Of a stretch of DNA of 64,000 bases, positions 1 to 62,722 are shown piece after piece. The stretch lies in IMG/VR virus record IMGVR_UViG_3300020388_000010; one strand, written 5' to 3'. Source of the DNA: a virus. Lineage: Duplodnaviria > Caudoviricetes. Each line of letters begins with the position of its first letter. The first letter of the stretch is position 1. Made by a program: the position numbers and the translations under genes. The notes beneath the pieces were generated by a model. The model did not search any database. It had not been told where the DNA came from and saw only the letters and a program-made list of their open reading frames with translations.

Positions 1-762
1 GTAGACATATCAATCAAACCAGACCCAGTTGCAAATGCAATTACAATAGAAACACAAACTGGTAGAAGAACAACCACAGGCCCTACAACTACAAGTGGTG
101 GTTATTGGAGTGAACCAAGAACAACTGATACTAATTTTACTGGTACAAGAGTGAGTGGTATCTCTACTGAAACTGGACAACCAAGAAATGAAAAGATGAG
201 AGTTGACCCAGAGTATCCTTACAATCACGCAAGGGAAACAGAGTCTGGACACATCAAAGAGTATGATGATACGCCTGGTGCAGAAAGAATTATGGAATTC
301 CATAGGACTGGAACATTCTATGAGGTAGATTCAGATGGTACAAAAATGACAAGAGTTGTAGGACATAATTATGAGGTTGTTGCTGGTAATGATTTTGTAA
401 ACATTAAAGGTGCTTGTAATTTAACGATTGACCAAAACTGTAATACCTACATTAAAGGAAACTGGAATATACAAGTAGACGGAAGTAAAACTGAAGTAAT
501 CAAAGGTTCACGAATGACAATGATTATGGGTGCAGATACATTAAACATAGCTGCAATGAGAAGTAAAGTTGTGGGTGCAGCTGAAAGTAATGCGATAGGT
601 GGTGCTCAAACTGATACTGTTGGTGGTGCTCAAATAACTTCAGTAGGTGGTTATATATCACGAAAAGCTGGTGCAAAGATAGGTGATATGGCTGGTGGAG
701 CATATACTGCAACTGCTGGTGGTTTCTATAAAGTAACTGCACCAAGAATTGACTTGAACTAG
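1..762 (+). CDS. gp5: Baseplate hub/central spike protein, C-terminal part (5' end lies outside window)
   Basis: Frame is open from base 1. Contains YPYNH..ETESGH..E.DDTPGAERI...HRTGTF.E and 8-residue V/I-x-G beta-helix repeats; followed by PAAR and gp25. Confidence 0.9.
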   Translation, partial: VDISIKPDPVANAITIETQTGRRTTTGPTTTSGGYWSEPRTTDTNFTGTRVSGISTETGQPRNEKMRVDPEYPYNHARETESGHIKEYDDTPGAERIMEFHRTGTFYEVDSDGTKMTRVVGHNYEVVAGNDFVNIKGACNLTIDQNCNTYIKGNWNIQVDGSKTEVIKGSRMTMIMGADTLNIAAMRSKVVGAAESNAIGGAQTDTVGGAQITSVGGYISRKAGAKIGDMAGGAYTATAGGFYKVTAPRIDLN

Positions 763-771
763 GAGAAATAA

Positions 772-909
772 ATGGCTAAAAAAATGAATACAATGTCAGT
801 CTACGAACCTACTTTTAAAAGAACATCTATTGGTAGGGGTAAAATTAAAACTTCTACTATGAATAAACATAAAAGAAGTAGTTGGAAGAAGTATCGTGGA
901 CAAGGATAA
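772..909 (+). CDS. 45-aa very basic small protein ending KKYRGQG (not in ORF track)
   Basis: AGGAG RBS, ATG at 772, reads MAKKMNTMSVYEPTFKRTSIGRGKIKTSTMNKHKRSSWKKYRGQG; its TAA overlaps the next ATG. Confidence 0.75.
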   Translation: MAKKMNTMSVYEPTFKRTSIGRGKIKTSTMNKHKRSSWKKYRGQG

Positions 910-1805
910 TGGTAACAATATCACCTTCATCAAGGTTTGCAAGTGTAGTTAGACAACAGAATGGTCATAGTCAAGTATTTTCAAGAACTGTAACTGCGAC
1001 TCCAGGCCCAAACGAAGTAATAGTTTCTACATCTTTATCTTTAGATAGAGAGTTTCATAATTTTTATTTAGAACCAGCAACCACTAACTCAATAGATAAC
1101 ATTATTACAGAAGATGATGATAACATTGTTTTTAATAGAACTAATTTATCTGGTGCAGATGCTGGAGATAAATTACAATTAGAAGCCGCAATAGTTGATG
1201 CAAATGTATTATTAGAAGAAGGAACTCCAGTTAGTGATGAAGATGAGGTGCGAGCAGACACAGATGTAATTTTATTAGAAGACACACTTGCAGACAGTGA
1301 ACCAGATATTTCAATTTCAAATGGTACTAGAAGTGCAACAACATCTGGATTTTATAGTCGTAGGTTTACTGATATTGGTCAGTTTGTTATTAAAGGAGAA
1401 AGTGATTTATTTTCTGGGAGTTTTGATTTTACTGGTATAGATAAGATGCCTTTAAATCATAATGATGAGTCTTTAGGAAAAAAATATACATTGTATAGTA
1501 TGAATCCAGATTTTACTGACCAATACAGATTTACATATAGTGTTACAGTATTGTATTATGAAGAACTAGAAATATCGGAAACTGACCCCATAACTTCAAC
1601 CACGACAACACATAAAATAAGAAGTAGTATAAAAACATTTTCTGCAACATTAACACACGCTGTGATAAATGATTTATCATTTATAGGAAGATATGTAAGT
1701 AGTTATTATGCACAAAATAGAATACAATTAGAAGATGATGAAGATGGAATAAATGATGAAGCATTTATATTATTAGAGGATGAAAACTTTGTTATTACAG
1801 AGTAA
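909..1805 (+). CDS. Acidic hypothetical virion protein with LLED-type and DAGD repeats
   Basis: Start reassigned to the ATG at 909 (TAATG overlap); lies in the baseplate cluster. Confidence 0.65.
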   Translation: MVTISPSSRFASVVRQQNGHSQVFSRTVTATPGPNEVIVSTSLSLDREFHNFYLEPATTNSIDNIITEDDDNIVFNRTNLSGADAGDKLQLEAAIVDANVLLEEGTPVSDEDEVRADTDVILLEDTLADSEPDISISNGTRSATTSGFYSRRFTDIGQFVIKGESDLFSGSFDFTGIDKMPLNHNDESLGKKYTLYSMNPDFTDQYRFTYSVTVLYYEELEISETDPITSTTTTHKIRSSIKTFSATLTHAVINDLSFIGRYVSSYYAQNRIQLEDDEDGINDEAFILLEDENFVITE

Positions 1806-1808
1806 TAG

Positions 1809-1816
1809 TATAAATA
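1809..1816 (+). promoter_or_regulatory. T4-type late promoter TATAAATA
   Basis: Exact consensus, intergenic before PAAR gene; gp55 is in the window. Confidence 0.8.
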
Positions 1817-1832
1817 ATCATAGGAAAAGAAT

Positions 1833-4572: not shown

Positions 4573-7500
4573 TGTCTTCTACATTTGATAAAAAAATATC
4601 ACCTTTATTACAAGAATTCGTTCCAGAGTTCTTAAAATCTGACCACCCTAAATTTGTAAAATTTTTAAAAGATTATTATAGATATCTTGAGTGTGGACAA
4701 CTAACCATTTCTGGTGATGTCAATTATGTGTTACAAGAAACTACATCTAATAATTATATTTTAAATGAGAAAGGTGATGAGAATGTTGTATTAGAAGATT
4801 CTGTTGCAAAGTTTACAGTTGGTGAAACAATCAAAGGTATTACATCTAATGCAACTGCGACAGTTTTAATTGATGACTTTGATGACAATCAAGTATTATA
4901 CATTACTTCACAAAATAAATTTGAAACTAATGAAGAAATTCAAGGTTTAACTTCTAATGCCCGAGCTAAAATTACACAGTTTCGTGGTAATCCAATACAA
5001 AACATTCAACAACTTTTAGATTATGCAGATGTTGATAATACCATATATGATTTTCTAACTCAATTTAGAGATTCATTTTTAGAAGGTATTAGTGAAACAC
5101 TTGCAAGTGGTGTATCAAAAAGACAATTAATAAAAACAATAAAAGATTTATATACTTCTAAAGGTACTATTGATGGTCACAAATATTTCTTTAGATTATT
5201 ATTTGATGAAGAAGCTGAAATAGTATTTCCAAGAGATAATATGTTAAGAGTTTCTGACGGTTTCTGGGACTCAGAAATTGTTATGAAAGTTATTGAAACA
5301 GGCACATCAGACTTTGGTAGTCTTTCTAATAAAATAATAACTGGTAGAACATCTGGTGCAACAGCAAGAATCACGACAGTCACTAAATTTACAGAGGGTG
5401 GTAATGCGTTTGCACAATTAAGAATTGCAGATAACTCTATTACTGGAACATTTCAAATTGGTGAAACTGTTTTTGGAACAGACCCTAATAATGATTTTGA
5501 TATTTTTGCAGTCATACAAGAAATTGTTTCTGGTGTTGATATTACTAGAAGTGGACAGTATTATGAAATCAATGACCCAGTAACTGTAATAGGTGGTGAT
5601 GGTTTTGCAGAAATGGTTGTTGCAGATGTATCAAAAGGTAAGATAGATGAAATAGTAATTGATGATACTGGTACTGGTTATACAAATGGAGCTCAACTTC
5701 AATTTGATAATAGTGATACAGATGGTACTGGTGTAGAAGCAAATGTTGATATTGTAGGTGGTTCAATACAATTAGAAAACGCAACATCTGGTGATAACAT
5801 TATTACTGATGAAAGAGAAAGTATTATTGTTGATGATGTCGGTGATATAGAACAAGAAGATGCAACCTTTGAAAATGTAAATATAGTTTTAAATAGAACT
5901 GCAACTCCCCACACAGATGCCGGTGATAATATAATTATTGAAACACCAGTTGACCCAGACAACTTCATTACAAATCATATTCAAATAGAAGATGATTCTG
6001 ATGGTGTCACTAATATAATTTTTGATAGAACAGATGCAACTGGGTCAGATGCAAATTCAAAAATACTTACAGAGGATTCTGTTGTTACGAGTGCAATACA
6101 AACTGGTGTGTTAGTCGGTGAAGAAACAAATTCATCTGAAAGATTTAGACAATCACTACCAGTAGATAACAATAACGATTTTATATTAGAAGACGAATTA
6201 GGAAACTTTAGATTACTAAGAGAAGAATCTGAACCAGAGTTCTTGATATTAGAACAAGATGCAACTGTTGATCACATAGTTCTTGATGGTACTGATACAA
6301 ATAGTGCTAACGAAAATGATAATATAGTTCAAGAGAATGATGGTGCTTCTAGAATCACTATGGAATTGTCAGATAGTGATGATGTATTACTATTTGAAAA
6401 TGAACAGTTTACACAATTAGAAACTGCAACATTACCGTCACAAGAACAAGGTGAGATAAGAAGAATAAGAATTACAAATGAAGGTAATGGTTATACTAAA
6501 TTACCATCTATAACTGTATCTGGTGGTACTGGTGCAAAACTTCTTGCAAAATCTAATACTGGAGTTGGTGGTGTTACAGAAGTAGGTATTAGAAACTTCG
6601 GTTCTGGGTATAAGAACGATTCTGTTTATCACATATTAGAAGATGCAACTGTTACTGGTGAAGCAATATCTGGCCAAAAAATATTATTAGAAAATGAGGG
6701 TGAAGGTGATGCAATCTTAAATGAAGATACAGTAAGAGATTCTGTAAGATTTAATAAAACTGTATTAGTAAAAGACATTGTTGGAACATTTGTTGCAACA
6801 GAAGGTTTAACATCATCAGAAGGAACTATTGTTTCCTTTGATAGTGCAAAACAAACCATTAAAATAAATTCAACACATACACCAGAAGAGGATGATTTAA
6901 TTACAACTGGTACTGCAAGTGGAATAGTTGTACAATGTTTAACAGCTGATGGTGATTTAACAACTGGTGCAACTGGTAGAACAACTGGTAACTTCATAGG
7001 TTCAAAAGGATTTGTATCTGAAGATACTATGAGAATTCAAGACTCGTATTATTATCAAGATTTTTCTTATGTTGTGAAAATAGGTGAATCAATTAATGAG
7101 TGGCGTGATAGTATTAGAACTGCGACACACCCTGCTGGGTTTGCAGTATTCGGACAAGTTACTATTGCATCATTAGTCAATGCACAACTTAAAATACCTA
7201 CTGGTTCTGAGATTTCTGGATTTGTAGGTGATACTGAAACATTTACTCCAGAACTTGCATCTACACTTACAACTCTATTTACAACTGTATTTGGTCGTAG
7301 GTTGGGTACAACAAATGATGGTACAACTTTAAATACAGCACCAGCTATTGGTTATCAAGAAAATACAAGTGGGGGTGGAACAGTATTACCATCTGGTAAA
7401 AGAGAACTAACATTATCAAGTTCTGTATCTATTACTATGGGTGGTGCAACATCATCATCATTTGCACCTTTCTTAGTTAATCTTGCAAAATATGGATTTA

Positions 7501-8111: not shown

Positions 8112-8115
8112 TCAT

Positions 8116-13622: not shown

Positions 13623-14633
13623 ATGCCAATAAGTAAAATACCCGTAGGTGCAATACAATCTGGAACGATTGGAACTTCTCAAATTGCTGATGATGCTGTC
13701 ACTACTGCAAAGATTTTAAACGATAATGTTACTTCTGCAAAAATTCCAAATGATGCAGTCGGTTCAACAGAAATTTCTTCTAATGCAGTCACTCGTGATG
13801 AGTTACAATCAGCTGCAGTAAATAATATTTCATCAGATTCTATTATTTTAAATTCTACTAATGGTACTGCTGATGCTGGTGATTTTTTAGTTTTAGATGG
13901 AACAGATAATTCTAGTACAAATGCAAATCACAGAATATTATATGATGAAACATTTAACCCATCAACATTTAATGTTAGTGGTACTGCAACAGCAGGAAAT
14001 GCTATTAAAGTGAAGTCAGGCGGTGGGTTTGAATTTGGTGCAGCTGGTGGACTGGTTTTATTAGAAACAAAAACTGTTGCTTCTGGTTCTGCAGCTAATC
14101 AACCCTTTCATTTTCAAAACATATTTTCTTCTACATATAGAAACTATAAAGTAATATACAATGTAAAAGAAACAGAAAGTTCTGCAAATGCTGGTAGTGC
14201 TGGATTGATTGTAAGATTAGGTAATGCTGGTACATTATCAACTGGTACATCATCAACTTGCAAACATTCATTAATGTATTGTCAAGGTGATGCTACTGCT
14301 GATTCTATTGTTTATGGTGATTCTGATGATATATTTGTTTTATGTCAGAACTTTAGTAGTAATGAAGATATGACTACATCTGGAGAGTGTACTTTTATGA
14401 ATATGTTAGATACTGATTTTCAAGGAAGTTGTATATCTAGTACAATGATGCACGGCGAGACAAATTCATATTATTATGAACACGGACTAAATATGATTAT
14501 AAATAAGGCAACAACTTTTACTGATATATCATTTGAAATCAAAGTTACTGGTGGAGGTGGTGGTGGCAATATGGATTCTTCCACAGCTGGATATCCAGTA
14601 TTTGGTGAAGTAAAAGTATATGGAATCATTTAG
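13623..14633 (+). CDS. Fibre protein with IADDAVTTAK repeats, acidic DAGD motif and variable tip
   Basis: 10-residue repeats, LDGTD motif, AIKVK.GGG.EFG joint; architecture shared with 34083 gene. Confidence 0.7.
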   Translation: MPISKIPVGAIQSGTIGTSQIADDAVTTAKILNDNVTSAKIPNDAVGSTEISSNAVTRDELQSAAVNNISSDSIILNSTNGTADAGDFLVLDGTDNSSTNANHRILYDETFNPSTFNVSGTATAGNAIKVKSGGGFEFGAAGGLVLLETKTVASGSAANQPFHFQNIFSSTYRNYKVIYNVKETESSANAGSAGLIVRLGNAGTLSTGTSSTCKHSLMYCQGDATADSIVYGDSDDIFVLCQNFSSNEDMTTSGECTFMNMLDTDFQGSCISSTMMHGETNSYYYEHGLNMIINKATTFTDISFEIKVTGGGGGGNMDSSTAGYPVFGEVKVYGII

Positions 14634-14642
14634 GAGATAAAA

Positions 14643-14936
14643 ATGGCATACACACATAAAATGGTTAATGGTGAAAAAGTACCTTTGACCGATTCAGAAA
14701 TAGAAGAACTTGAAGCAAGAGATGTAGAATGGGCAAAAGGTGCTTACGATAGAGCGATTGCTGGTTTAAGAATGGAAAGAGATAATAAACTTGCACAGTC
14801 AGATTGGATGGCTAACTCTGATGTGACAATGAGTTCTGATTGGAAAACTTATAGACAAGAGTTAAGAGACTTGACTAAAGGTTTAGATACTGAGGACAAA
14901 GTAAATAAAGTTACTTGGCCAAAAGAACCATCATAA
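14643..14936 (+). CDS. Tail fibre assembly chaperone
   Basis: LR.ERD..L..SDW...D......W..YRQELRDL; paralogue of 11266 gene. Confidence 0.8.
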   Translation: MAYTHKMVNGEKVPLTDSEIEELEARDVEWAKGAYDRAIAGLRMERDNKLAQSDWMANSDVTMSSDWKTYRQELRDLTKGLDTEDKVNKVTWPKEPS

Positions 14937-14964
14937 GATGGACTAAATAGTAGAAGGAAATACA

Positions 14965-16482
14965 ATGGCTGCAATTATTACAGAAAAATTTAGACAAACA
15001 AACGCTGCTCAGTTTGAGGAATCATTTTCTGAAACAAACGAAAACTATTATATGTTTGTAGGAAAATCAACTCCTTTTACTAGTGGAACTTCTGGTGGAA
15101 GTGATACTTCTCCACCAAGTCCAGTAGACGATATTACATCAGAGAATTATAGATGGGACTCAATGTTAGGTGCAAATGCGATTGCATCTTCTGATGTATC
15201 AAGAGGTGTTCCTAGAAGAACATATACATCTGGTACTACTTACGATATGTACGAACATAACATTAGTGCAGCTAATCCTTCAAATCAAACTGGTGCAAGT
15301 AATCTTGTTGATTCTACATATTTTTTCATAACTTCAGATTACAGAGTTTACAAAGTTTTATATAACTTAAATTCTTCTGGAGTAAAAATCGCACTTTCAA
15401 CAGAACCTACTTTTACTTCCCCAGTAAAACAATTTGTTGGTGGTTATTATTTACAATATATGTACACATTGACAACCACTCAAGTAGACAAATTTTTAAC
15501 AACTGACTTTATGGCAGTCGCAACAGACTCAACTGTATCATCTGGTGCAGTAACAACAAGTACAGACTCTGCACCTTTTAATGGTGCTCCTATTGATACT
15601 TTCTTGGTAACAAGTCAAGGTAGTGGATATCCAGACGGAACTTATTATGTTAAAGTTGCTGGAGACGGAACTGGTGGAATCTTAAAGGTTGTTGTGAGTT
15701 CAAATGTAATAACAAGATTTGGTGAAACTGGTGTATCATCAGTACAAGCTGGTGGTGCAAATTATACTTTTGCAACAGTAGATTTGGCAGGAACTAATGT
15801 TTATACAAATGCTGGTGCAACATCTTTAATAAGTGGAGGTACTTTATCAACTTGGAATTCAGCTAGTGCTGGAACTATAACTCCAATTATATCACCTCAA
15901 GTTGGTCACGGACACGATGCAGTTGAAGAATTAGGTGGACACTATGTAATTTTAAATACAAAGTTTGAACAAGAAGAAGGTAATGATATTACTGTTGCAA
16001 ACGACTTTAGACAAGTAGGTATTATGAAAAATCCTACTCAATTTAACAGTTCGTCATTATTTACAGCATCTACTGCCAGACAAACATATGCAATTTATAT
16101 TCCTTCACCAAGTGGAGATTTTGATGCAGATGAAAAAATAACTCAAGCAACTACTGGTGCAATCGGTAGAGTCGTTGAATGGGATGCAACAAATAAGATT
16201 TTATATTATCAACAAGAAAGATTTACAAATTATGGTGTTAATACTGCAAGTAACACAGTTTTATTTTCTGGTGCAAATGCAGTATCTGGTGCAGACTCTA
16301 GTGCATCTGGCACTCCATCATCAACTGGTTCTGAAACTGTTGATAGTATCGCATTTTCAAGTGGATATGCAAATCCAGAAATGCACCCAGATAGTGGGGA
16401 CATAATTTATATAGAAAACAGAAGACCTATTTCACGAGCATCTGACCAAACAGAGGATGTTAAAATCATAGTTGAGTTTTAA
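14965..16482 (+). CDS. gp8: Baseplate wedge subunit
   Basis: MAAIITEKFR, YDMY, GHG.DA.EELG, NDFRQVG, SG.IIYIENR.PI.R..DQTED.K...EF. Confidence 0.9.
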   Translation: MAAIITEKFRQTNAAQFEESFSETNENYYMFVGKSTPFTSGTSGGSDTSPPSPVDDITSENYRWDSMLGANAIASSDVSRGVPRRTYTSGTTYDMYEHNISAANPSNQTGASNLVDSTYFFITSDYRVYKVLYNLNSSGVKIALSTEPTFTSPVKQFVGGYYLQYMYTLTTTQVDKFLTTDFMAVATDSTVSSGAVTTSTDSAPFNGAPIDTFLVTSQGSGYPDGTYYVKVAGDGTGGILKVVVSSNVITRFGETGVSSVQAGGANYTFATVDLAGTNVYTNAGATSLISGGTLSTWNSASAGTITPIISPQVGHGHDAVEELGGHYVILNTKFEQEEGNDITVANDFRQVGIMKNPTQFNSSSLFTASTARQTYAIYIPSPSGDFDADEKITQATTGAIGRVVEWDATNKILYYQQERFTNYGVNTASNTVLFSGANAVSGADSSASGTPSSTGSETVDSIAFSSGYANPEMHPDSGDIIYIENRRPISRASDQTEDVKIIVEF

Positions 16483-16484
16483 GA

Positions 16485-25818: not shown

Positions 25819-27504
25819 ATGCCATTAACAACTATCAAATCATCAAACATAAAAGACGCTGAAGTAAAAAATGCAGACATTAGTCCAACTGCTGGTATTG
25901 CAGAATCTAAAGTTGCTGGATTAGATGCAGCTCAAATTAGTACAAACGCATTTAATATTGGTGTCTTAGGTTTTAAGATGGCAGTAAGTGAAGGACTTAC
26001 TGTTTTCAATTTAATTGATGGTATTGTTGATGAATTCAACAATGAAAGTGGTATAGACACATCAGAAAATGTAACTTCTAGTTATGATTCTAGTTCAGAT
26101 TTCTATTCAAATTTAGATGGCCCTAATCCTATTCCAACTCCACAAGCATCTTTGACTCAAATTACATCAAGTGGGCCTGGTACATATAGTGTTGAACCCA
26201 CAACAACTGTCGTTAAAGTTTTTGCTGTTGGTGGTGGAGGTGCTGGTGGTGGTTCTGGGCCTGGTAATGGAGGCGGTGGCGGCGGAGGTGCTGGTGGTGT
26301 ATTTTTAGATGCTGATGTTCCAGTAACTGGTGGTGCTGGTGTTGCAGTAAATGTTGGTGCTGGTGGTGAGGGTCATTTTGTACCTAATCATCCATCTTAT
26401 CCAGCAGTTGGTTCTGCACATCCTTCAAGACCTTCAGAGTGGGTAACTTACTCACCATTCTCTGCTGAGCCTGGTACTCACTCAAAACCTGGCGCTGATA
26501 CAACTTTTGGCCCTACTGTTTTAGCAGAAGGTGGTGGAGGTGGTGGTCACGGATATCAAGGAACAAGTGAGGGTGCATCTGACCCAGCATTTCCTGGCCA
26601 AGAATTAGTAGATGGATTGCCTGGTGGTTCTGGTGGTGGTGCTGGATATTCTGAAGGTACAATAGGTGAGGGAGAAACTGGAGAAAGTAGACACCCTGCT
26701 GGAGATTTAGCACAACAAGGATTTGACGGTGGTATATTTTATGGTTCTGGGCCAGGTTATGGTGGTGGTGGCGGTGGTGGTGCTGGTCAACTAGGTGAAG
26801 CTGCAAGTGGTTCAGAAGGTGGAGAAGGTGGTAATGGCATACAAGTCGGCCCTGCTAATCCACAATTAAATTGGATGCCTGCTGGTTACGGTTTTGATAC
26901 TGGTGAATATATTGCTGGTGGAGGAGCTGGAGGAGAATATGCCCCTGGCGCTTTAAATAATGGTGGTTTAGGTGGTGGTGGTGATGCAAATCATTTTCCA
27001 CAAGCAAGTGGTATAAGTGAACCAGCTGTAGAAACAAGAGGTGAAGATGGTGATGCAAACTCTGGTGGAGGTGGTGGTTCATTTGGTGGTGGGCCAGGTG
27101 GTAGCACTCCAGATAAAAGAGGTGGTCTCGGTGGTAGTGGACAAATAGTTGTATTAGAAATGGAGTCATTAGCCACATCTGCAAGTAGCACATTAGTATC
27201 AGATACATTTACTGCAAACTCAACACCAACTAAAGCAAGAATAGTTTTATTTGCAGAAATAAGTGATGATTTAAATACAGATGTGTCAGTTTCTGCAACC
27301 AGAGATAACACTAACTACGATGCAATCACATTAACAGATACTGGTTATGTAAGTGGTAGTAGTGGTACAAAAGTATATTCTGGTTCTACTACATTAACTG
27401 GAGCTGCACCTGGCCAACCTCAAGTACAAGTCCGTTGGAAAATTGTTGGAAGTAATCAAACTGCTGAAAATAAAATACACGGTGTTGCGTTGCAGTGGAA
27501 ATAA
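25819..27504 (+). CDS. Glycine-rich adhesin-like protein, paralogue 1
   Basis: Conserved FNIGVLGFK...DEF N-block and SDTFTA...HGV.LQW C-block flank polyglycine tracts. Confidence 0.75.
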   Translation: MPLTTIKSSNIKDAEVKNADISPTAGIAESKVAGLDAAQISTNAFNIGVLGFKMAVSEGLTVFNLIDGIVDEFNNESGIDTSENVTSSYDSSSDFYSNLDGPNPIPTPQASLTQITSSGPGTYSVEPTTTVVKVFAVGGGGAGGGSGPGNGGGGGGGAGGVFLDADVPVTGGAGVAVNVGAGGEGHFVPNHPSYPAVGSAHPSRPSEWVTYSPFSAEPGTHSKPGADTTFGPTVLAEGGGGGGHGYQGTSEGASDPAFPGQELVDGLPGGSGGGAGYSEGTIGEGETGESRHPAGDLAQQGFDGGIFYGSGPGYGGGGGGGAGQLGEAASGSEGGEGGNGIQVGPANPQLNWMPAGYGFDTGEYIAGGGAGGEYAPGALNNGGLGGGGDANHFPQASGISEPAVETRGEDGDANSGGGGGSFGGGPGGSTPDKRGGLGGSGQIVVLEMESLATSASSTLVSDTFTANSTPTKARIVLFAEISDDLNTDVSVSATRDNTNYDAITLTDTGYVSGSSGTKVYSGSTTLTGAAPGQPQVQVRWKIVGSNQTAENKIHGVALQWK

Positions 27505-35340: not shown

Positions 35341-37239
35341 ATGTCTGATACTAAAGTAAACAGCAATATGATTGAAGAATCTGGTAAAGTTAGTTCTGGA
35401 CAGATTCAACCTAATTCAATTTCAACTGCTGATATAACAAACTCATCAATTACTAATAGTGATATCTCTCCATCAGCTGCAATCGCATTAAATAAATTTA
35501 GTTTGCCTGGAAGTTCATCAGATTTTTTAAAAGGTGATGGAAGTTTTGGTACTGTTGATTTAAGTGCAGTAGGTACTAATGCATTTAATGTTGGTGTGTT
35601 AGGTTTTAAACTCGCAGTCAATGAAGGACTCACTATTTTTAATCTTGTTGATGGTATCGTAGACGAATTTAATAGTGAAGGTGGTATTGATACTGGCGAA
35701 AACTCAAACGCATCTTACGAATCAGCATCAGATTTTTATCAAAATTTATCACCAACGCCTGGTGTTGCAATGCATCTCGGTGTAGATGCAGTTACATTTG
35801 AAAACCCAGAACACGCACCATTAATTACATACACTTCTCAAGAAGCTACATTCGGTGCATTTGGAACTCAAGGTAGTATAACATTTCCCACATTAACAAC
35901 TTCAATAGAAGCAACTATGGTTGGTGCTGGTGCTGGAAACAATAGTCAAGGTTCTGGAGGTTCTGGTGGTAGTGTACAAGGTACAATAGCAAGTCCATCA
36001 ATCGCTGGTGCTACTTGGGATTATGTTGTAGGTGAAGCTGGTGTTGGCCCACAATACAGTACCCCCCAATATCCAAGTGGAGATATAGGTGCTACTGGTG
36101 GTTATGGTGGTGGTGCTTATGGTGCTATTGGTGGAGGTGGTGGTTTTACTGGAATTTTTGATGGTGAAGTTACAATTATAGAGGGTGGTACATATGGTGA
36201 AACTGGAAATTATCATACACCAGGCACACCTAATAATTATCCATTTGAGGGCCCAGGTTTTTCAGATACAGTTTCTCCAACTAATGCTAGTGAAGCAGTT
36301 TTAATTGTAGGTTCTGGTGGTGCTGGTGAAAATTCAAACGGTGCTCCAGCAGCACAAGGTGGTGGTGGTGGATTTACTGCTGGAACTAATGGTTCTGGTG
36401 GTTTTAGTGTACCTACTGCTAGTTCTGGTGGTACTAATGCATCTGGTGGGGGTGCAGACCAAGAAGCAAACGGACATTTAGGGGCATATCCAGTTGGTGA
36501 AATTTCTGGAGGAGGCCCAGCAGAGTGGACACAAGAATCTCCACACCCAGATGCAATACATTTTCAAGGTGGTGGAATGATGTACCCACCTTATCACTAT
36601 GGTGGTGGTGGTTCTGGATATCACGGAGGTGGTGGTACATCTGACCCAGGCGGTTATACTGGTGGTACTGGTGGTGGTTCTGGATATTCAAATCCTACAT
36701 ATGTTGCAACTCCATCTTTAGAATATGAAACAGCAGTTGGTAGTGCATCAAATCCTACTCCATTAAGTGTATTTGACGAAGCACCATATTATACTGGATT
36801 GCCTTCACCAAGACAAGCACTTTTTGCTGATGGAGCTAGAGGTGAAGGGGCAACTAGTGGTGCTACAAATACTGGTGGTGATGGTGGTATTCTTTTAGTT
36901 TTTGATGCTGGTTCAAGTTCAACAAGTATGACTTTAGTATCAGATACATTTACTGCGAGTGCGACACCATCTACTTCAAGAGTTGTGTTGTTTGCAGAAA
37001 TAGCAGATGATTTAAATACTGATGTTGCAATATCAGTAACAAGAGATAATACAACATACAATTCAGTATCATTAACTGATACTGGTTTTGTAAGTGGTTC
37101 AAGTGGTATTAAAATATATACTGGTAGCACACCTTTAACTGGAAGTGCTAGTCCACAAGTTCAGATGAGGTGGAAAGTTGTTGGGTCATCACTTACTGGT
37201 ACAAATAAAATTCACGGAGTTGCACTACAATGGGCATAA
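35341..37239 (+). CDS. Glycine-rich adhesin-like protein, paralogue 3
   Basis: Same N- and C-blocks; most divergent middle. Confidence 0.75.
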   Translation: MSDTKVNSNMIEESGKVSSGQIQPNSISTADITNSSITNSDISPSAAIALNKFSLPGSSSDFLKGDGSFGTVDLSAVGTNAFNVGVLGFKLAVNEGLTIFNLVDGIVDEFNSEGGIDTGENSNASYESASDFYQNLSPTPGVAMHLGVDAVTFENPEHAPLITYTSQEATFGAFGTQGSITFPTLTTSIEATMVGAGAGNNSQGSGGSGGSVQGTIASPSIAGATWDYVVGEAGVGPQYSTPQYPSGDIGATGGYGGGAYGAIGGGGGFTGIFDGEVTIIEGGTYGETGNYHTPGTPNNYPFEGPGFSDTVSPTNASEAVLIVGSGGAGENSNGAPAAQGGGGGFTAGTNGSGGFSVPTASSGGTNASGGGADQEANGHLGAYPVGEISGGGPAEWTQESPHPDAIHFQGGGMMYPPYHYGGGGSGYHGGGGTSDPGGYTGGTGGGSGYSNPTYVATPSLEYETAVGSASNPTPLSVFDEAPYYTGLPSPRQALFADGARGEGATSGATNTGGDGGILLVFDAGSSSTSMTLVSDTFTASATPSTSRVVLFAEIADDLNTDVAISVTRDNTTYNSVSLTDTGFVSGSSGIKIYTGSTPLTGSASPQVQMRWKVVGSSLTGTNKIHGVALQWA

Positions 37240-56081: not shown

Positions 56082-56102
56082 AATGAATACAAGGAAATAA
56101 TA

Positions 56103-56866: not shown

Positions 56867-56885
56867 GAAAGTTAAAGGAGATAAA

Positions 56886-57071
56886 ATGTTTAGTTTTATA
56901 ACAAATTTATTTAAACCAAAACCAAAAAAGATTTCAAAGTCAAGACTTATGACTATGACTAAGAGAGAGTTAGAGAATGTAGGTCGTAAACACGGTATTG
57001 AATTAGATAGAAGATATCTAAAAGATGACCTTGTTGAACAACTTTGGAAACATATAAATGGAAAGAAATAA
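56886..57071 (+). CDS. Small helix-extension-helix (Rho-N-like) protein
   Basis: L..MTK.EL....R..GI.LD.R..K..L...L pattern; strong RBS. Confidence 0.6.
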   Translation: MFSFITNLFKPKPKKISKSRLMTMTKRELENVGRKHGIELDRRYLKDDLVEQLWKHINGKK

Positions 57072-57502
57072 TGTATGAATATAAATGTGAAATTGTCAAG
57101 ATTGTGGACGGCGACACTATTGATGTCAATATTGATTTGGGTTTCGGTACTTGGATTCATAATGAACGAATACGCCTCTATGGAATTGACACACCAGAAT
57201 CAAGAACAAGAGACTTGGAAGAAAAGAAAGCTGGTCTGTACGCAAAAAAGTGTGTGGAAGGATTTATGCCAGTGGGTTCAAGTCAAGTCTTAATGACAAA
57301 GAAAGATAAGTCTGGTAAGTTTGGTAGGGTCTTAGGTGACTTTATAATCTATGATGGACAAGAAGATAGAAATATGGGTATCGTTGAGTATATGATAAAA
57401 CACAATATAGGTGTTGAATATAATGGACAATCCAAACAACAGATTCAAGAACATCACTTACAAAATAGACAATATTTAAAATCACAAGGCGTAATAGATT
57501 AG
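57071..57502 (+). CDS. Thermonuclease (SNase)-like protein
   Basis: VDGDT.D..IDLGF, R.RLYGIDTPESR, GKFGR.LG. Confidence 0.85.
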   Translation: MYEYKCEIVKIVDGDTIDVNIDLGFGTWIHNERIRLYGIDTPESRTRDLEEKKAGLYAKKCVEGFMPVGSSQVLMTKKDKSGKFGRVLGDFIIYDGQEDRNMGIVEYMIKHNIGVEYNGQSKQQIQEHHLQNRQYLKSQGVID

Positions 57503-57505
57503 ATT

Positions 57506-58573: not shown

Positions 58574-58582
58574 GAGTAAATA

Positions 58583-59119: not shown

Positions 59120-59120
59120 A

Positions 59121-60092
59121 ATGAGAAACTTCTTATTTGTATTTACATTATTATTTGCAACAACTTTGTTTGCACGAGATCAAATTAAAATAGTAGGTAG
59201 TTCTACTGTATATCCATTTGCAACAACTGTTGCAGAACGATTTGGTAAGTCTAGTGGATTTAAAACACCAGTAGTTGAGTCAACTGGTTCTGGTGGTGGA
59301 TTAAAACTTTTTTGTGCTGGTATGGGAACACAACACCCAGACATAACAAATGCATCAAGAAGAATAAAACAAACAGAAATAGATAATTGTAAAAAGAATG
59401 GTATCAAAGATATTACAGAAGTTAAAATAGGATATGATGGTATTGCGATTGCAAACTCAAAAAAAGGTGTTAACTTTCATTTATCAACAAGAGATTTATA
59501 TCTTGCACTTGCAAAAGATGTACCAGCAGACATTGATGGTAAAACTGTTAAACCTAATCCATATAAAAAATGGATAGAAATAAATCCAACATATCCAGAC
59601 TTACCTATTGCTGTTTATGGCCCACCTCCAACATCTGGTACTAGAGATGCACTTAATGAACTTGGTATTGAAAGGGGTTGTAAAACATATCCAGAGAGAA
59701 AAAAACTTAAAGAAAAAAATAAAGAATTATATAAATCTGAATGTCGTGCAATAAGAACAGATGGTGTATATATAGAAGCTGGTGAGAACGACAATCTAAT
59801 AATTGAAAAATTAATAACAAACCCAGATTCATTAGGTATATTTGGTTATTCTTTTTTAGATGAGAATAGAGATAAAGTAAAGGCTGCAACAATTAATGGT
59901 GTTAGTCCAGAGTTTGAATTAATTAGTAATGGTACATATCCTATTTCTAGGTCATTATGGTTTTATGTAAAAGATGCACACGCAGCTGTAATTCCAGGCA
60001 TTAGAGAATATACAAAAGAATTTACATCTGATAGAGCAATAGGTGATGACGGATATTTGATAGGTAAAGGACTCATACCACTTAATGATTAA
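59121..60092 (+). CDS. pstS: Phosphate ABC transporter substrate-binding protein
   Basis: Signal peptide, then GSSTVYP, STGSGGG, NASR, GPPPTSGTRD, YPISR; start reassigned to 59121. Confidence 0.92.
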   Translation: MRNFLFVFTLLFATTLFARDQIKIVGSSTVYPFATTVAERFGKSSGFKTPVVESTGSGGGLKLFCAGMGTQHPDITNASRRIKQTEIDNCKKNGIKDITEVKIGYDGIAIANSKKGVNFHLSTRDLYLALAKDVPADIDGKTVKPNPYKKWIEINPTYPDLPIAVYGPPPTSGTRDALNELGIERGCKTYPERKKLKEKNKELYKSECRAIRTDGVYIEAGENDNLIIEKLITNPDSLGIFGYSFLDENRDKVKAATINGVSPEFELISNGTYPISRSLWFYVKDAHAAVIPGIREYTKEFTSDRAIGDDGYLIGKGLIPLND

Positions 60093-60582
60093 ATTTAGTG
60101 AAATAAAAGATATACACCCAGAGGGTTCTATTTGGTTAGGTGAAAATCGTAATAAAAATGATAAAACTCTTTTGCATAATCAAGCATTATCTTTTCACGA
60201 GAATTTTCTTGATGTTGCAAAAGATGTTTTTACAGAAGACAAAAGATTTGCAGATGTAACCGAACACGATTGGATGCAACCACTATTTGATAAACTAATG
60301 AAATTATTAGAAGATGTTGGATTTGGTAAATATTATGTTGTACAAGCAGATTTAAACAAGGCTACAGATGTTCCATCACATTATCGTATGTTATATATAC
60401 CTTGTTGTTCTCCAGATTGTATTGACTTAGATATTCAAACTGGTGAAAAAGGTATTTTTAAACTACCACTCAAAGAGGGAAGTTTTATAGTAATGCCTCC
60501 CAATTCTGGTATTAGAATTATTGCACCACCAGGCAAAATGTTTTTATCTTTGATTATGGGTATTTGTAAAGATGAGGATTGA
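60085..60582 (+). CDS. Hypothetical protein, possibly a degenerate cupin/2OG fold
   Basis: EGSFIVMPP resembles the oxygenase EG...FPS segment; metal ligands not evident. Confidence 0.5.
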   Translation: MIKFSEIKDIHPEGSIWLGENRNKNDKTLLHNQALSFHENFLDVAKDVFTEDKRFADVTEHDWMQPLFDKLMKLLEDVGFGKYYVVQADLNKATDVPSHYRMLYIPCCSPDCIDLDIQTGEKGIFKLPLKEGSFIVMPPNSGIRIIAPPGKMFLSLIMGICKDED

Positions 60583-61201
60583 CAGCATACCATTGTTCCC
60601 AACAATGATTTACAAATTTCATATTGACCCAAACTTATATAATAAACAAAGTATAATTGATATTGTAGAAAAGAATTACCAAAAAAATAGTTATAGAAAT
60701 AAGTTTGATAGTAATAGTGACATACATCATTCATATGCTGATTTTGACAATGATGATTACGATAAACCAGTTTTAGATAAACTAACAGATGTTTACAATA
60801 ATACATTTACTGAATTTACTAAACAACTAAAATTTAAAAGGTTTGAATATAGTTTAGATAATATTGTTGCAACTAAAGGTTCTCAATATATGGCTCCACA
60901 TAATCATTTACCAGTTGCAGACTATTCTTGTATTCATTATATAAAGTTTAATAAAGATGTTCATAAACCAACCACATTTAGAAATCCTAGTATGTTTGCT
61001 AAAAGTTTACATCATATTAAACCTAAATTTAAACCTAGAATAAATGAAGTAGACTTTTCAATATTTTCTGAAAAACATTTTGTTTTGACAACAGAAGATG
61101 ATATGATAATTATACCATCTTACTTAGAACACCAAGTAGATAAATCATATAATGACGAAATGAGAATAACTATCGTTACAAATTTAATAGTAAATGACTA
61201 A
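60572..61201 (+). CDS. Putative 2OG-Fe(II) oxygenase (TIGR02466-like)
   Basis: LFPT, PHNH, S.IHY, F.NP, IPSYLEH.V, RIT...N. Confidence 0.75.
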   Translation: MRIDSIPLFPTMIYKFHIDPNLYNKQSIIDIVEKNYQKNSYRNKFDSNSDIHHSYADFDNDDYDKPVLDKLTDVYNNTFTEFTKQLKFKRFEYSLDNIVATKGSQYMAPHNHLPVADYSCIHYIKFNKDVHKPTTFRNPSMFAKSLHHIKPKFKPRINEVDFSIFSEKHFVLTTEDDMIIIPSYLEHQVDKSYNDEMRITIVTNLIVND

Positions 61202-61715
61202 AATGATTATAACAAAAAATGATATATTATCAGAGGAAGATAGGCTTCTTATAGTAAAAGATATACAGTATGAGTTAAAACATAACCCTACTCCAAATAA
61301 AATGAAACCTTTATATCAAACAAAGGTTGACATACACAGAAAATATGTTAAAATACATAAACATTGGGATAATTTTTTCAAATCAATATATGATATGTTT
61401 ATTTTAAACAAGATAGGATTTGGTGCTTTCACAATGTGTTGGGGTATGAAACAATCTAAAGAAACAATAAATATGTATCACACACACCAGAAAGCAGACA
61501 CTAACGAAAGTCCAGATTTAAGTATCATATATTATGCACAAAATAAATATCCTAAGTATGGAACTTATATAGGTATTGGAGATATGAAAGAGGGAGTACA
61601 AAATTCACTTGTAGTTTTTGATGCAAGTATTCCACATAGAGCTCCAGATTTACCTAAAGAAGTTTTAGAAGAAGAAGACAGAATAATAATCGCAATGGAT
61701 TACATATATGACTAA
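61194..61715 (+). CDS. Putative 2OG-Fe(II) oxygenase
   Basis: HTH, S.IYY, GT, NS..VFD..IPH, R..IA. Confidence 0.7.
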   Translation: MTKMIITKNDILSEEDRLLIVKDIQYELKHNPTPNKMKPLYQTKVDIHRKYVKIHKHWDNFFKSIYDMFILNKIGFGAFTMCWGMKQSKETINMYHTHQKADTNESPDLSIIYYAQNKYPKYGTYIGIGDMKEGVQNSLVVFDASIPHRAPDLPKEVLEEEDRIIIAMDYIYD

Positions 61716-61947
61716 AAAATACATACACATAAATCAACACAAGATTCGTGCAAATAAAAAACACGGAACAAATGAAGCAGTAATTACTATTAAAGAAGGT
61801 CGTAAAAATACTTATTGTCATAGTGTTGAAATACTAGGCCCATCTAAATTATTTTATGGTGGTAATGATAAACCAATTCTACCTTGTGGTGCAAGAGTTG
61901 TTATTGAAACAGAAAGTGATTTAAAGATTGATAATAAAGACTATTGA
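61708..61947 (+). CDS. Hypothetical protein
   Basis: IHINQH.IR.N, GPS, CGARV.IETE. Confidence 0.65.
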   Translation: MTKKYIHINQHKIRANKKHGTNEAVITIKEGRKNTYCHSVEILGPSKLFYGGNDKPILPCGARVVIETESDLKIDNKDY

Positions 61948-62722
61948 TTGGAAAGTTGCAACTCTTTTCGTTCAAAAAAGACACTATAGTGCAGTTATGC
62001 CTAGACTAACTAAACATTGGTTAGGTTGTTATCAAAATGAAAAGTTAGTTGGGGTAATAACTTTAGGTTGGGGAACTAGACCTAAACATACCATACAAAA
62101 AATATTTCCAGAATTAGATACAAAAGATTATTATGAAATAGGAAAAATGTGTATGGATGAAGATATGCCTCGTAATTCTGAATCTCAAATGTTATCAAAA
62201 ACATTAAGTTATATACGAGAAAATTTATCCAATATAAAATATCTTTATACTTGGGCAGATGGTATTGTTGGTAAGCCTGGATATGTTTATCAATCTGCAA
62301 ATTTTTTATATGGTGGATTTGTTTGGACAGATGTTTATATTTTAGATGGAGAAAAGGTACACCCAAGAACATTACAAGGACAATTACCAAATGATGATGG
62401 AATGAAGTATGGACACAGACCCAATTCCGAACAACTAAAAGAAATGAAAATTACTAGAGTTTTTGGTAAACAGTTTCGTTACATATATCCTATGAATAAA
62501 ACATATAGAAAGTATCTTAAAAAATCTACTATGAATTGGAATTTAGACTATCCAAAAGATAAAGACTTGGAATGGAAAGTTAAAAAACCAGAGGACGAGA
62601 AATATACTTTGACAAAGGTAATGCCGTTCAAACAAGATAGTGGTAAAGTAAAACATAACTCTACTAATGTAAATAAAGTTGCAGATAAGTATGGAACAGC
62701 AAGTTTGGAGGAATTCATTTGA
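61928..62722 (+). CDS. Mom-like GNAT-fold DNA modification protein
   Basis: HYS, N.ES..LS, ..AD....G.VYQ.ANF.Y.G motifs of the Mom family; TTG start. Confidence 0.7.
   Translation: MIIKTIDWKVATLFVQKRHYSAVMPRLTKHWLGCYQNEKLVGVITLGWGTRPKHTIQKIFPELDTKDYYEIGKMCMDEDMPRNSESQMLSKTLSYIRENLSNIKYLYTWADGIVGKPGYVYQSANFLYGGFVWTDVYILDGEKVHPRTLQGQLPNDDGMKYGHRPNSEQLKEMKITRVFGKQFRYIYPMNKTYRKYLKKSTMNWNLDYPKDKDLEWKVKKPEDEKYTLTKVMPFKQDSGKVKHNSTNVNKVADKYGTASLEEFI

What the first reader, a model, noticed from the sequence alone, without database searches (positions are those of the whole stretch)
270..62290. CCWGG is tolerated almost only when overlapped by GCC/GGC: possible footprint of a motif-specific DNA modification
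Seen: Pro-Gly forces CCNGG. I found roughly 60-70 CCWGG sites by eye, and essentially all read GCCWGG or CCWGGC. This is achieved with codons that are otherwise rare here: ACG-CCT-GGT (~273, ~17698, ~35756), TCG-CCA-GG (~28192, ~38040), TTG-CCT-GG (~28441, ~58721) and CCA-GGC (~1002, ~1851, ~42989). The one exception I saw (~36251, GGGCCCAGGT) still touches a GCC. The few CCGG (~5919, ~17525, ~28882) and CCWWGG sites (~1887, ~21983, ~30413, ~44601, ~57892) follow the same rule. Established: phages protect restriction sites with motif-specific marks, for example GpC-directed C5 methylase/TET pairs, and preQ0 7-deazaguanine at GGC in coliphage CAjan. Inference: this phage modifies a base in GGC/GCC, and unavoidable restriction sites are steered to overlap that mark. 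That would be a conditional form of restriction-site avoidance. No responsible enzyme is identifiable in this window.
Basis: partly seen in the sequence, partly recalled or inferred. Interest (0 to 1): 0.85.

Follow-up and report, generated by a model that had tools for sequence, protein, structure and literature searches.

The report
Restriction sites kept only beside GCY
This marine T4-like phage has purged several short nuclease-target words except copies that overlap or touch a G-C-C/T step, the sequence its own type of cytosine methylase is known to modify, so the genome appears to record that a sparse DNA mark shields it from cutting.

Summary
In the window, 69 of 70 CCWGG sites read GCCWGG or CCWGGC, where protein-preserving codon shuffles give about 10. 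In the closed 143-kb genome the count is 107 of 108. CCWGG is a special case of a wider purge. CAGG/CCTG is the most depleted word, and 197 of its 199 genomic copies have a GCY step (GCC or GCT) within one base pair. Surviving CCGG, GCGC and CCWWGG sites obey the same rule, and GGWCC, which cannot hold such a mark, is absent.

About 10 kb beyond the window the same genome encodes a C5-cytosine methylase and TET dioxygenase pair, a family shown experimentally to modify GpC[C/T]. The window itself encodes a Mom homologue (61928-62722).

Controls separate cleanly. Cassette-bearing phage Melnitz and 80 methylase-bearing contigs obey the rule. Cassette-less Pelagibacter phages Mosig and HTVC008M do not. 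Phage S-B43, whose GpC mark is experimentally verified, shows the rule at CCGG.

One caveat remains. A related, essentially complete genome (G002) has the footprint but no methylase or TET, only Mom and sugar transferases, so the marking enzyme is not settled. No physical evidence of modification was obtainable.

The scan has reported this footprint before on other marine T4-like phage DNA.

The parts
270..62290 (.). Footprint: 70 CCWGG sites of which 69 read GCCWGG or CCWGGC, and 108 CAGG/CCTG sites of which 107 have a GC step overlapping or abutting
   Evidence: Shuffles give about 10 flanked CCWGG and 386 CAGG.
36253..36257 (+). The single unflanked CCWGG (GGGCCCAGGT); its nearest GCY mark is at bp -2 of the CAGG core
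61928..62722 (+). Mom-family protein (homologue of phage Mu's DNA-adenine carbamoylmethylase). One of only six genes shared by the three footprint-positive genomes and absent from both footprint-negative ones
   Evidence: PF25680, E 3e-53. PDB 8BV8 Mu Mom, E 1e-22. Phyletic pattern.
57044..57502 (+). Staphylococcal-nuclease-like protein with the same phyletic pattern as Mom; its role is unknown
   Evidence: PF00565, 27.9 bits against a cut-off of 21. Phyletic pattern.
5920..5923 (.). Surviving CCGG in GCCGG context. The other two (17526 GCCGG, 28882 CCGGC) are likewise marked
   Evidence: CCGG is 3 observed against 18 expected.
26492..26495 (.). Surviving GCGC in RGCGCY context. All 6 window GCGC sites (26492, 26948, 34234, 39821, 50298, 52874) read RGCGCY
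25819..27504 (+). Glycine-rich fibre gene dense in steered sites, for example repeated GGG-CCT-GGT where GGT/GGA would be the usual Gly codon

Best explanation
The phage DNA carries a covalent mark on the cytosine of G-C-Y steps (GCC and GCT, read on either strand). A mark inside a nuclease's target word, or on the base pair next to it, blocks cutting. Selection has therefore removed every copy of the targeted words that lacks such a mark: CAGG/CCTG, CCWGG, CCGG, GCGC, CCWWGG, and GGWCC entirely because it cannot hold one. Copies forced by the protein sequence (Pro-Gly gives CCNGG, Gly-Pro gives GGNCC) were recoded with otherwise rare codons so that a GCY step overlaps them.

In this phage the most likely writer is the C5-cytosine methyltransferase encoded right after the DNA polymerase, about 10 kb past the window's end. 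Its 5mC is probably then oxidised by the adjacent TET/JBP dioxygenase and elaborated further (a ParB-like protein and a P-loop kinase follow).

What is shown: the footprint, its GCY geometry, the genes, and the association across genomes. What is inferred: that the mark exists on virion DNA, its chemistry, which enzyme writes it, and that nucleases are the selective agent. I put about 0.85 on 'a GCY-directed mark causes the footprint' and about 0.6 on the full statement including the methylase as writer.
For: (1) Footprint. CCWGG is flanked in 69/70 window sites and 107/108 genome sites, against 10 and 23 expected. Unmarked CAGG is 2 against 504 expected, while marked CAGG is 197 against 133.

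(2) Geometry fits a dinucleotide-anchored mark in several registers: CAGGC, GCCAGG, RGCAGG and CAGGGC. A degenerate recognition site cannot produce this.

(3) A GCY prediction was met. NGCAGGD survivors have A (14) or G (2) at -2 and never C or T, where shuffles give T 52, A 31, C 7, G 4. GCY is the best mark model: log10 LR 129, against 84 for any GpC and 117 for GCC only.

(4) Independent words obey the rule: 6/6 GCGC read RGCGCY, 3/3 CCGG are marked, 7/7 CCWWGG are marked or abutted, and GGWCC is 0 against 43 expected with GGCCC enriched.

(5) Genes. L093 is 100% identical to window 59925-64000. It carries PF00145 (E 8e-55) with intact FAGGGG, SPPC, ENV and QxRxR motifs, then PF12851 TET with HxD, H and R motifs, then an unknown protein and a P-loop kinase.

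(6) Literature. TET-associated phage C5-MTases mostly methylate GpC[C/T] (PMC8256090). The closest solved homologue, SpCmoX (8YF3, E 2e-69), targets a GC motif (PMC12783734).

(7) Natural controls. Melnitz (cassette present): CCWGG 68/68, CCGG 15/15, GGWCC 0. Mosig and HTVC008M (cassette absent): CCWGG 35/125 and 24/136, GGWCC 79 and 73, matching shuffles. Across 80 MTase-bearing contigs, 161/165 CCWGG are marked, against 194/348 (56%) in the capsid-anchored loci L005-L080.

(8) S-B43 has an experimentally verified GpC C5 mark and no Mom. Its CCGG count is 8 against 200 expected, and all 8 are GC-flanked, with unmarked 0 against 152.
Against: (1) G002 is a collinear, essentially complete 148-kb relative with the full footprint: unmarked CAGG 7 against 427 expected, CCWGG 65/68, CCGG 15/15. 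It has no C5-MTase, TET or dCMP hydroxymethylase by Pfam, tblastn or clade-specific HMMs. So the methylase is not necessary for the footprint in every lineage.

(2) Mom at 62% identity or more co-occurs with the footprint in every genome where both could be scored.

(4) Some GCY-containing words are still depleted (AAGCTT 2 against 8.8, TAGCTA 2 against 9.5, AGCT ratio 0.72), so the mark is not a universal shield.

(5) In S-B43 the marked CCGG copies are also depleted sixfold, so protection there is partial.

(6) As far as I know, no characterised restriction enzyme has a bare CAGG specificity.

(7) The TET could be a thymine dioxygenase rather than a 5mC dioxygenase, since ParB and kinase neighbours are typical of that subclass (PMC13229309).
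Confidence: 0.6

Rival explanations
1. The GCY mark is written by the Mom-clade enzyme (window 61928-62722), acting on cytosine (for example at N4) rather than on adenine as in phage Mu. The methylase/TET cassette would then be an additional or secondary system.
For: Mom at 62% identity or more is present in all three complete footprint-positive genomes (window phage, Melnitz, G002) and absent from both negatives. All 18 Mom-anchored loci of that clade keep the CCWGG rule. In G002, Mom sits in the polymerase-UvsX slot that holds the methylase in this phage, and it is the only known sequence-specific DNA base modifier there. A GNAT enzyme that acylates cytosine N4 has precedent in RNA (TmcA, cited in PMC13219725).
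Against: Characterised Mom modifies adenine in S-A-S. The rescued CCGG and GCGC sites contain no adenine, so a new base specificity would be required. There is no S-A-S-conditional rescue: ACGT and TCGA are 0, with 91 and 76 marked copies expected. Eight loci with Mom at 43-48% identity lack the footprint. S-B43 shows the effect without Mom. This reading also needs two unrelated enzymes with the same GCY specificity in one genome.
Confidence: 0.2
2. The cutting agent is not a host restriction system. It is a nuclease encoded by the phage itself, used to degrade unmarked host or competitor DNA, and the phage genome has to be free of unshielded sites to survive its own weapon. This rival concerns who cuts, and it is compatible with either writer of the mark.
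For: The CCWGG, CCGG and GGWCC rule is shared by all 80 methylase-bearing contigs and by three divergent complete genomes, whereas other purged words (GATC, ACGT, CATG, TCGA) differ from lineage to lineage. A staphylococcal-nuclease-like gene (57044-57502) has the same phyletic pattern as the footprint. T4 uses the same logic with hmC and its Endo II/IV (established knowledge).
Against: SNase-fold enzymes are normally not sequence-specific. Several distinct words are avoided, which fits several host systems better than one nuclease. The CAGG purge is complete in some footprint-positive lineages and only partial in others. No candidate sequence-specific phage nuclease was identified.
Confidence: 0.15
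3. There is no modification. The nucleases that shaped the genome simply have extended recognition sites that exclude a 5' G or a 3' C (for example HCCWGGD).
For: For CCWGG alone, a palindromic HCCWGGD specificity would reproduce the either-flank rule.
Against: It would have to hold independently for CAGG in four registers (including a dependence on -2 only when -1 is C or G), and for CCGG, GCGC and CCWWGG. It does not explain why the pattern tracks modification genes across related phages, or why it appears in S-B43 at exactly its verified modification motif.
Confidence: 0.04
4. The flanks reflect codon-pair or translational bias, mutational bias, or positive selection for GCCWGG as a functional motif.
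For: 68 of 70 sites are in one reading frame (Pro-Gly), so a codon-context effect has to be considered.
Against: Mosig and HTVC008M have similar GC content, belong to the same family and have the same gene set, yet show none of it. The total CCWGG count equals the minimum forced by Pro-Gly, so nothing is being added. The rule also holds for CAGG in other frames and on both strands, and the two fixes are used mutually exclusively (35, 31, 2, 1), as expected for 'one mark is enough'.
Confidence: 0.01

Closest known systems
Phage C5-methyltransferase + TET/5mYOX post-replicative cytosine hypermodification clusters (Burke et al. 2021, PMC8256090; glycosyltransferase follow-up, bioRxiv 10.1101/2023.12.21.572611)
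   Same: The gene pair and order match: an overlapping MTase and TET, with tailoring genes (here a P-loop kinase) downstream. The family's measured specificity, GpC[C/T], equals the GCY inferred here from the footprint alone.
   Different: Those studies characterised enzymes expressed in E. coli and explicitly doubted that such sparse marks could protect a genome. Here the genome sequence shows co-adaptation: target words survive only where the mark falls. This member's specificity and product were not measured.
SpCmoX, the GC-directed cytosine C5-carboxymethyltransferase of Synechococcus phage S-B43 (PDB 8YF3; PMC12783734)
   Same: It is the closest solved homologue (E 2e-69), with a shared SPPC catalytic motif and a GC target. 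S-B43's genome also shows mark-conditional survival of CCGG (8 of 8).
   Different: The Arg350 that binds the carboxymethyl group is Leu in this phage's enzyme. No CmoA or CmoY appears in the gene tables. The enzyme is paired with a TET, which needs 5mC.
Phage Mu Mom (adenine N6-carbamoylmethylation at S-A-S; PMC13219725, PMC7261163)
   Same: The window gene 61928-62722 is a full-length Mom-family protein (PF25680, E 3e-53; 32% identity to Mu Mom). Mom is a known broad anti-restriction mark.
   Different: The footprint needs a mark on a G:C pair at GCY, not on adenine at S-A-S, and no S-A-S footprint was found.
Classical restriction-site (palindrome) avoidance in phage genomes
   Same: Strong, selection-driven depletion of short target words, including unconditional purges here of GATC, ACGT, TCGA, CATG and GGWCC.
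   Different: For words that can overlap GCY the avoidance is conditional. The total count of forced sites is unchanged, but their flanks are rewritten.
T-even phage hmC glucosylation
   Same: A cytosine C5 modification used as a shield against nucleases, in a T4-like genome backbone.
   Different: T4 replaces every cytosine before replication, so no sequence footprint is needed. Here only about 1 base pair in 50 is marked (1,194 GCY positions in 64 kb), and the genome sequence compensates.
7-deazaguanine (preQ0, dG+) modification at GA/GGC in phages 9g and CAjan
   Same: A partial, motif-restricted modification that protects overlapping restriction sites.
   Different: No DpdA/TGT, QueC/D/E or FolE family appears in the gene tables covering the closed genome. 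The GCT/AGC contexts fit a cytosine mark at GCY better than a GGC guanine mark.

Membership tests
Restriction-site avoidance | Target words depleted relative to a null that preserves proteins and codon usage | tested here: met
   CAGG 108 against 386, GATC 6 against 146, ACGT 0 against 84, TCGA 0 against 77, CATG 1 against 74, GGWCC 0 against 43. Genome-wide figures.
Phage TET-associated C5-cytosine methyltransferase | PF00145 domain with catalytic motifs I, IV (PC), VI (ENV) and VIII | tested here: met
   E 8e-55 over profile positions 1-323 of 324. FAGGGG, GSPPC, ENV and QKRER are seen in the alignment to 8YF3. The gene lies outside the window, on L093 14321-15520, a contig 100% identical to the window's end.
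Phage TET-associated C5-cytosine methyltransferase | Adjacent to a TET/JBP gene, with tailoring genes nearby | tested here: met
   MTase 14321-15520, TET 15517-16497, a 328-aa protein, then a P-loop kinase. Melnitz has the same order.
Phage TET-associated C5-cytosine methyltransferase | Methylates GpC[C/T] | not testable with these tools
   Indirect only. The footprint's best mark model is GCY, but G002 shows the same footprint without this enzyme.
TET/JBP (5mYOX) dioxygenase | PF12851 above the curated cut-off, with HxD...H iron ligands and the 2OG arginine | tested here: met
   44.5 bits against a cut-off of 34.9. AHIDSGD, EVHGV and GQRFS are read in the translation. The substrate (5mC or T) was not tested.
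CmoX cytosine C5-carboxymethyltransferase | SPPC motif plus Arg350, which binds the carboxymethyl group (PMC12783734) | tested here: not met
   SPPC is present, but the residue aligned to R350 is Leu. This is therefore not a CmoX.
Mom family | Full-length PF25680 domain and similarity to the solved Mu Mom | tested here: met
   E 3e-53 over profile positions 3-197 of 202. 8BV8 at E 1e-22, with a shared DMPRNSE segment.
Mom family | Modifies adenine in S-A-S | tested here: inconclusive
   No S-A-S-conditional rescue of purged words was seen. That does not show what the enzyme does.
7-deazaguanine DNA modification (DpdA pathway) | Presence of DpdA/TGT and preQ0 synthesis genes | tested here: not met
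   None appears among the precomputed Pfam families of the genes called across the closed 143-kb genome. I made no dedicated search for these families.
5mYOX-associated ParB-like partner | ParB/sulfiredoxin-fold domain encoded next to the dioxygenase | tested here: inconclusive
   Window phage's 328-aa protein: model pLDDT 69; ParB/Srx-fold chains match the N-domain only at Z 4-5.3, and Foldseek gives E 0.12 at best. G002's 403-aa slot protein is clearly ParB-like: pLDDT 87, Noc/ParB at E 2e-5.

The most novel reading that the evidence does not exclude
The GCY mark common to all footprint-positive lineages is written by the marine Mom clade acting on cytosine. That would be a new base specificity for a tRNA-dependent GNAT DNA modifier, and the methylase/TET or glycosyltransferase cassettes would be interchangeable second layers. 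Sparse marking plus genome-wide recoding would then be a general, heritable anti-nuclease strategy of abundant ocean myophages, possibly enforced by the phage's own nuclease.
Probability: 0.2. Interest if true: 0.88.

Novelty: new variant of a known kind. Interest (0 to 1): 0.78.

Why it matters
The groups who discovered phage C5-MT/TET pathways state that a GpC-limited mark seems unlikely to protect a genome broadly, which leaves its function open (bioRxiv 10.1101/2023.12.21.572611).

This footprint gives a direct answer from sequence alone. The phage does not need to mark every site, because it rewrites its genome so that every site it cannot lose sits under a mark. Three consequences follow:
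- The footprint reads out the modification motif (GCY) and the set of nuclease specificities a wild, mostly uncultured phage group faces, without any biochemistry.
- It predicts that the C5-MT/TET pathway is a real anti-nuclease shield in very abundant ocean phages.
- It is immediately testable in a cultured pair, Melnitz and OM43 strain H5P1.

It also flags a puzzle. G002-type phages keep the same footprint with no recognisable methylase, which points to an unrecognised writer of the mark.

Tried and rejected
(1) A blanket 'any GpC' mark. It fits worse than GCY, and GCA-only words such as GTGCAC are purged.

(2) GCC/GGC only. This leaves about 25 CAGG survivors (AGCAGG class) unexplained.

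(3) An adenine (S-A-S) mark. There is no conditional rescue, and CCGG and GCGC have no adenine.

(4) CCGC as extra evidence. Its unmarked copies are 0 against 33 expected here, but the same depletion occurs in cassette-less Mosig (3 against 29), so I dropped it.

(5) The idea that G002's 403-aa and 328-aa slot proteins are divergent MTase and TET because their sizes match. BLASTP finds nothing. The 328-aa protein looks like a T4 beta-glucosyltransferase and the 403-aa protein is ParB-like.

(6) The idea that G002 hides the cassette in a missing part of its genome. The contig is collinear around the whole circle, with the break inside the giant structural gene.

(7) Other base-modifying genes among G002's private genes. 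Only radical-SAM and pentapeptide-repeat proteins turned up.

(9) Looking for Nanopore runs to see basecalling errors at GCY.

(11) Megablast and tblastn of window genes against cultured phages find no close relative. The nearest capsids are 72% identical.

(12) Homologues of the window phage's 328-aa cassette protein in the MTase loci. None were found, and the slot is variable.

Full report
WHAT THE WINDOW IS. The window is 33% GC, and nearly all its genes lie on the + strand. It has T4-type baseplate, fibre, head, UvsW/UvsY and gp46/47 genes. The major capsid protein is 72% identical to those of Methylophilales phage Melnitz and Pelagibacter phage Mosig, and 70% to HTVC008M. No whole genome is held for it. 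By walking with exact-protein look-ups I recovered contigs that are 99.98-100% identical to both ends of the window and closed a 143,350-bp circle.

CHECKING THE OBSERVATION. There are 70 CCWGG sites, and 69 read GCCWGG or CCWGGC. The exception is at 36253. Shuffling synonymous codons, genome-wide or within each gene, keeps the total at 68-70 but gives only 9-11 flanked sites (sd about 2.6, maximum 21). 68 of the 70 sites are in-frame Pro-Gly. Pro-Gly cannot escape, because CCC-GG and CCG-GG create CCGG, which is itself purged (3 against 18 expected). The steering uses rare codons. Gly is GGC in 6% of cases overall but 48% after Pro. The preceding codon ends in G in 54% of cases, against 8% before Pro-nonGly. 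Gly before Pro is always GGC or GGG, which together make up 10% overall. The two fixes are almost mutually exclusive (35, 31, 2 with both, 1 with neither), as expected if one flank is enough. The 79 kb outside the window replicate the result, with 38 of 38 flanked.

WHAT IS REALLY AVOIDED. An unbiased k-mer scan against the shuffles shows that the most depleted word is the 4-mer CAGG/CCTG (108 against 386, z = -22), with CAGGC enriched. Every CCWGG contains one CAGG. Of the 108 CAGG sites in the window, 74 are CAGGC, 20 are GCCAGG (3 of those also CAGGC), 16 are GCAGG and 1 is GCCCAGG. So a GC step overlaps or abuts the word in several registers. A degenerate recognition site cannot produce that pattern, but a mark anchored on GC can. 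Also purged outright are GATC, ACGT, TCGA, CATG, GGWCC (0 against 43, with GGCCC enriched as the Gly-Pro escape), CAATTG, AGTACT and CTATAG.

THE MARK IS GCY. The literature reports that TET-associated phage C5-methylases mostly methylate GpC[C/T] (PMC8256090). That predicts GCAGG can be protected only through its bottom strand, which requires a purine at -2. Observed at -2: A 14, G 2, C 0, T 0. Shuffles give T 52, A 31, C 7, G 4. Independently, all 6 GCGC sites read RGCGCY, all 3 CCGG carry an in-site mark, 7 of 7 CCWWGG are marked or abutted, and the single CATG reads GCCATG. Genome-wide, CAGG with no GCY mark within one base pair is 2 against 504 expected, while marked CAGG is 197 against 133. 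Three of the five apparent exceptions are CAGGGCC, which places a mark at +1. In a model comparison GCY wins: log10 LR 129, against 123 for GCB, 117 for GCC and 84 for any GpC. Protecting positions are bp 4 of CAGG or the base pair next to the word on either side.

THE ENZYMES. L093 is 100% identical to window 59925-64000. Directly after the DNA polymerase it encodes a C5-cytosine methyltransferase (PF00145, E 8e-55, catalytic motifs intact), then a TET/JBP dioxygenase (PF12851, above cut-off, with HxD, H and R motifs), then a 328-aa protein, a P-loop nucleotide kinase and UvsX. The methylase's closest solved homologue is SpCmoX (8YF3, E 2e-69), a GC-directed carboxymethyltransferase. The Arg350 that defines CmoX is Leu here, so this enzyme is most likely a plain methyltransferase, in keeping with the TET partner. 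The N-domain of the 328-aa protein resembles ParB/sulfiredoxin folds only weakly. The slot after TET differs even between 97%-identical relatives. The gene tables of the closed genome show no DpdA/Que genes, no Dam and no N4-methylase.

COMPARATIVE TESTS. Melnitz has the same cassette (MTase 76% and TET 78% identical; the TET is annotated only as 'hypothetical'). Mosig and HTVC008M have neither gene. Complete genomes give the following:

| Genome | CCWGG marked | CCGG marked | GGWCC |
|---|---|---|---|
| Window phage | 107/108 | 3/3 | 0 |
| Melnitz | 68/68 | 15/15 | 0 |
| Mosig | 35/125 | 26/53 | 79 |
| HTVC008M | 24/136 | 41/51 | 73 |

For Mosig, shuffles on 100 kb of the genome confirm that the counts are at chance. 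In 80 viral contigs anchored on the methylase (72-97% identity), 161 of 165 CCWGG are marked. In the capsid-anchored loci L005-L080 the figure is 194 of 348 (56%). The full CAGG purge is lineage-specific. Melnitz instead purges unmarked TCAGG, GCAGG and CCTCC, while marked copies stay at expectation. Mosig's own avoided words show no rescue by GCY. Finally, Synechococcus phage S-B43 has a GpC C5 modification verified by LC-MS and Nanopore (PMC12783734) and has no Mom. It purges CCGG to 8 against 200 expected, and all 8 survivors read GCCGG or CCGGC, with unmarked 0 against 152.

THE PROBLEM CASE. G002 (IMG/VR contig, 148 kb) is collinear with this genome around the whole circle and has the full footprint: unmarked CAGG 7 against 427, CCWGG 65/68, CCGG 15/15, GCGC 47/47 GCY-marked, GGWCC 2 against 65. 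Yet it has no C5-methylase, TET or ThyA-type hydroxymethylase by Pfam, tblastn or clade-specific HMMs at maximum sensitivity. Its polymerase-UvsX slot holds a DruA-like protein, a ParB-like protein, a T4 beta-glucosyltransferase-like protein, a TET-associated glycosyltransferase (PF20691), endonuclease VII, Mom and a MazG-like protein. The lineage has diversified while keeping both this slot and the footprint, so this is not a recent loss. Only six genes are shared by the three footprint-positive genomes and absent from both negatives. They include Mom and a staphylococcal-nuclease-like protein. Mom is therefore a serious rival as writer of the mark. Against that reading: the known Mom chemistry targets adenine in S-A-S (PMC13219725); rescued CCGG and GCGC have no adenine; there is no S-A-S footprint; loci with more distant Mom (43-48% identity) lack the footprint; and S-B43 shows the effect without Mom.

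VERDICT. The best reading is a GCY-directed mark on cytosine that shields overlapping or abutting nuclease targets, with everything unshielded purged and forced sites recoded. I give this about 0.85. The writer in this phage is most likely the C5-methylase, with TET-dependent elaboration, which brings the full statement to about 0.6. Mom is the main rival at about 0.2. Who does the cutting, host restriction systems or a phage nuclease, is open.

No paper in the searchable library links restriction-site avoidance to GpC hypermodification. The Melnitz paper only speculates that its 'type II methylase' protects the DNA.

Earlier notes of this scan describe the same footprint and the same locus in this genome. 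Three follow-up reports describe the footprint in other marine T4-like phages, one of them methylase-less like G002. Those notes agree with what I tested here but are not independent evidence.

Noticed in passing
window, whole length: WAGC/GCTW is depleted while SAGC/GCTS is not: TAGC/GCTA is 128 against 266 expected, and AGCT unflanked by S is 34 against 90 while S-flanked is 204 against 227. GCT steps followed by A or T seem disfavoured. This could be a fourth-base preference of the writer, an interplay with an S-A-S adenine mark, or avoidance of a modification-dependent nuclease.
   Followed up: partly
window, whole length: There are unconditional purges of GATC (6 against 146), ACGT (0 against 84), TCGA (0 against 77), CATG (1 against 74), CAATTG (0 against 34), AGTACT (0 against 27) and CTATAG (2 against 20). 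Relatives differ widely in which of these they purge, which suggests a varied nuclease landscape among hosts.
   Followed up: partly
L093:16602-18116 compared with L099/L100 12337-13434: The tailoring slot after TET is hypervariable. This phage has a 328-aa ParB-like(?) protein plus a P-loop kinase. Relatives with 97% identical methylase have an unrelated 365-aa gene and no kinase. Melnitz has a 427-aa ParB-like protein plus a kinase. The final chemistry of the mark is probably diversifying.
   Followed up: partly
L179 (Melnitz MZ577097.1) 5208-6194, and record coordinates 69574-70377: In the cultured phage Melnitz, the TET/JBP gene is annotated as 'hypothetical protein' and the Mom homologue as 'protein of unknown function DUF465'. 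The published description mentions only a 'type II methylase'.
   Followed up: yes
L215:8608-9819 (-), G002: This 403-aa protein in the modification slot has a confident ParB/Noc-like fold (pLDDT 87, Foldseek E 2e-5). Its conserved N-terminal YVY...KYIG pattern is reminiscent of GIY-YIG nucleases. It is homologous to the gene after TET in Melnitz (E 5e-13).
   Followed up: partly
L212:760-8693 (-), G002: A private cluster of three radical-SAM enzymes interleaved with three pentapeptide-repeat proteins (possible DNA mimics), with no counterpart in the window phage or Melnitz.
   Followed up: no
L179+L182 (Melnitz): CCTCC/GGAGG is 0 against 90 expected when unmarked but 14 against 17 when GCY-marked. 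This is a further mark-conditional word, and it resembles a Shine-Dalgarno/anti-SD sequence.
   Followed up: no
L183+L184 (Mosig): HCCGCR (CCGC without a GCY step) is strongly depleted (3 against 29) in a phage that has no cassette and no Mom. Not every 'GCY-conditional' depletion reflects a mark, which is a useful caution for automated scans.
   Followed up: partly
window 57044-57502: This staphylococcal-nuclease-like gene is present in all three footprint-positive genomes and absent from both negatives. Melnitz annotates its copy as 'nuclease-like protein'.
   Followed up: partly
L098:2187-2912 and L092:4253-6640: Auxiliary metabolic genes elsewhere in the genome include SoxY/SoxZ, PhoH, IscA, IscU/NifU and an SdhB-like ferredoxin protein. 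They hint at a chemolithotrophic or methylotrophic marine host.
   Followed up: no
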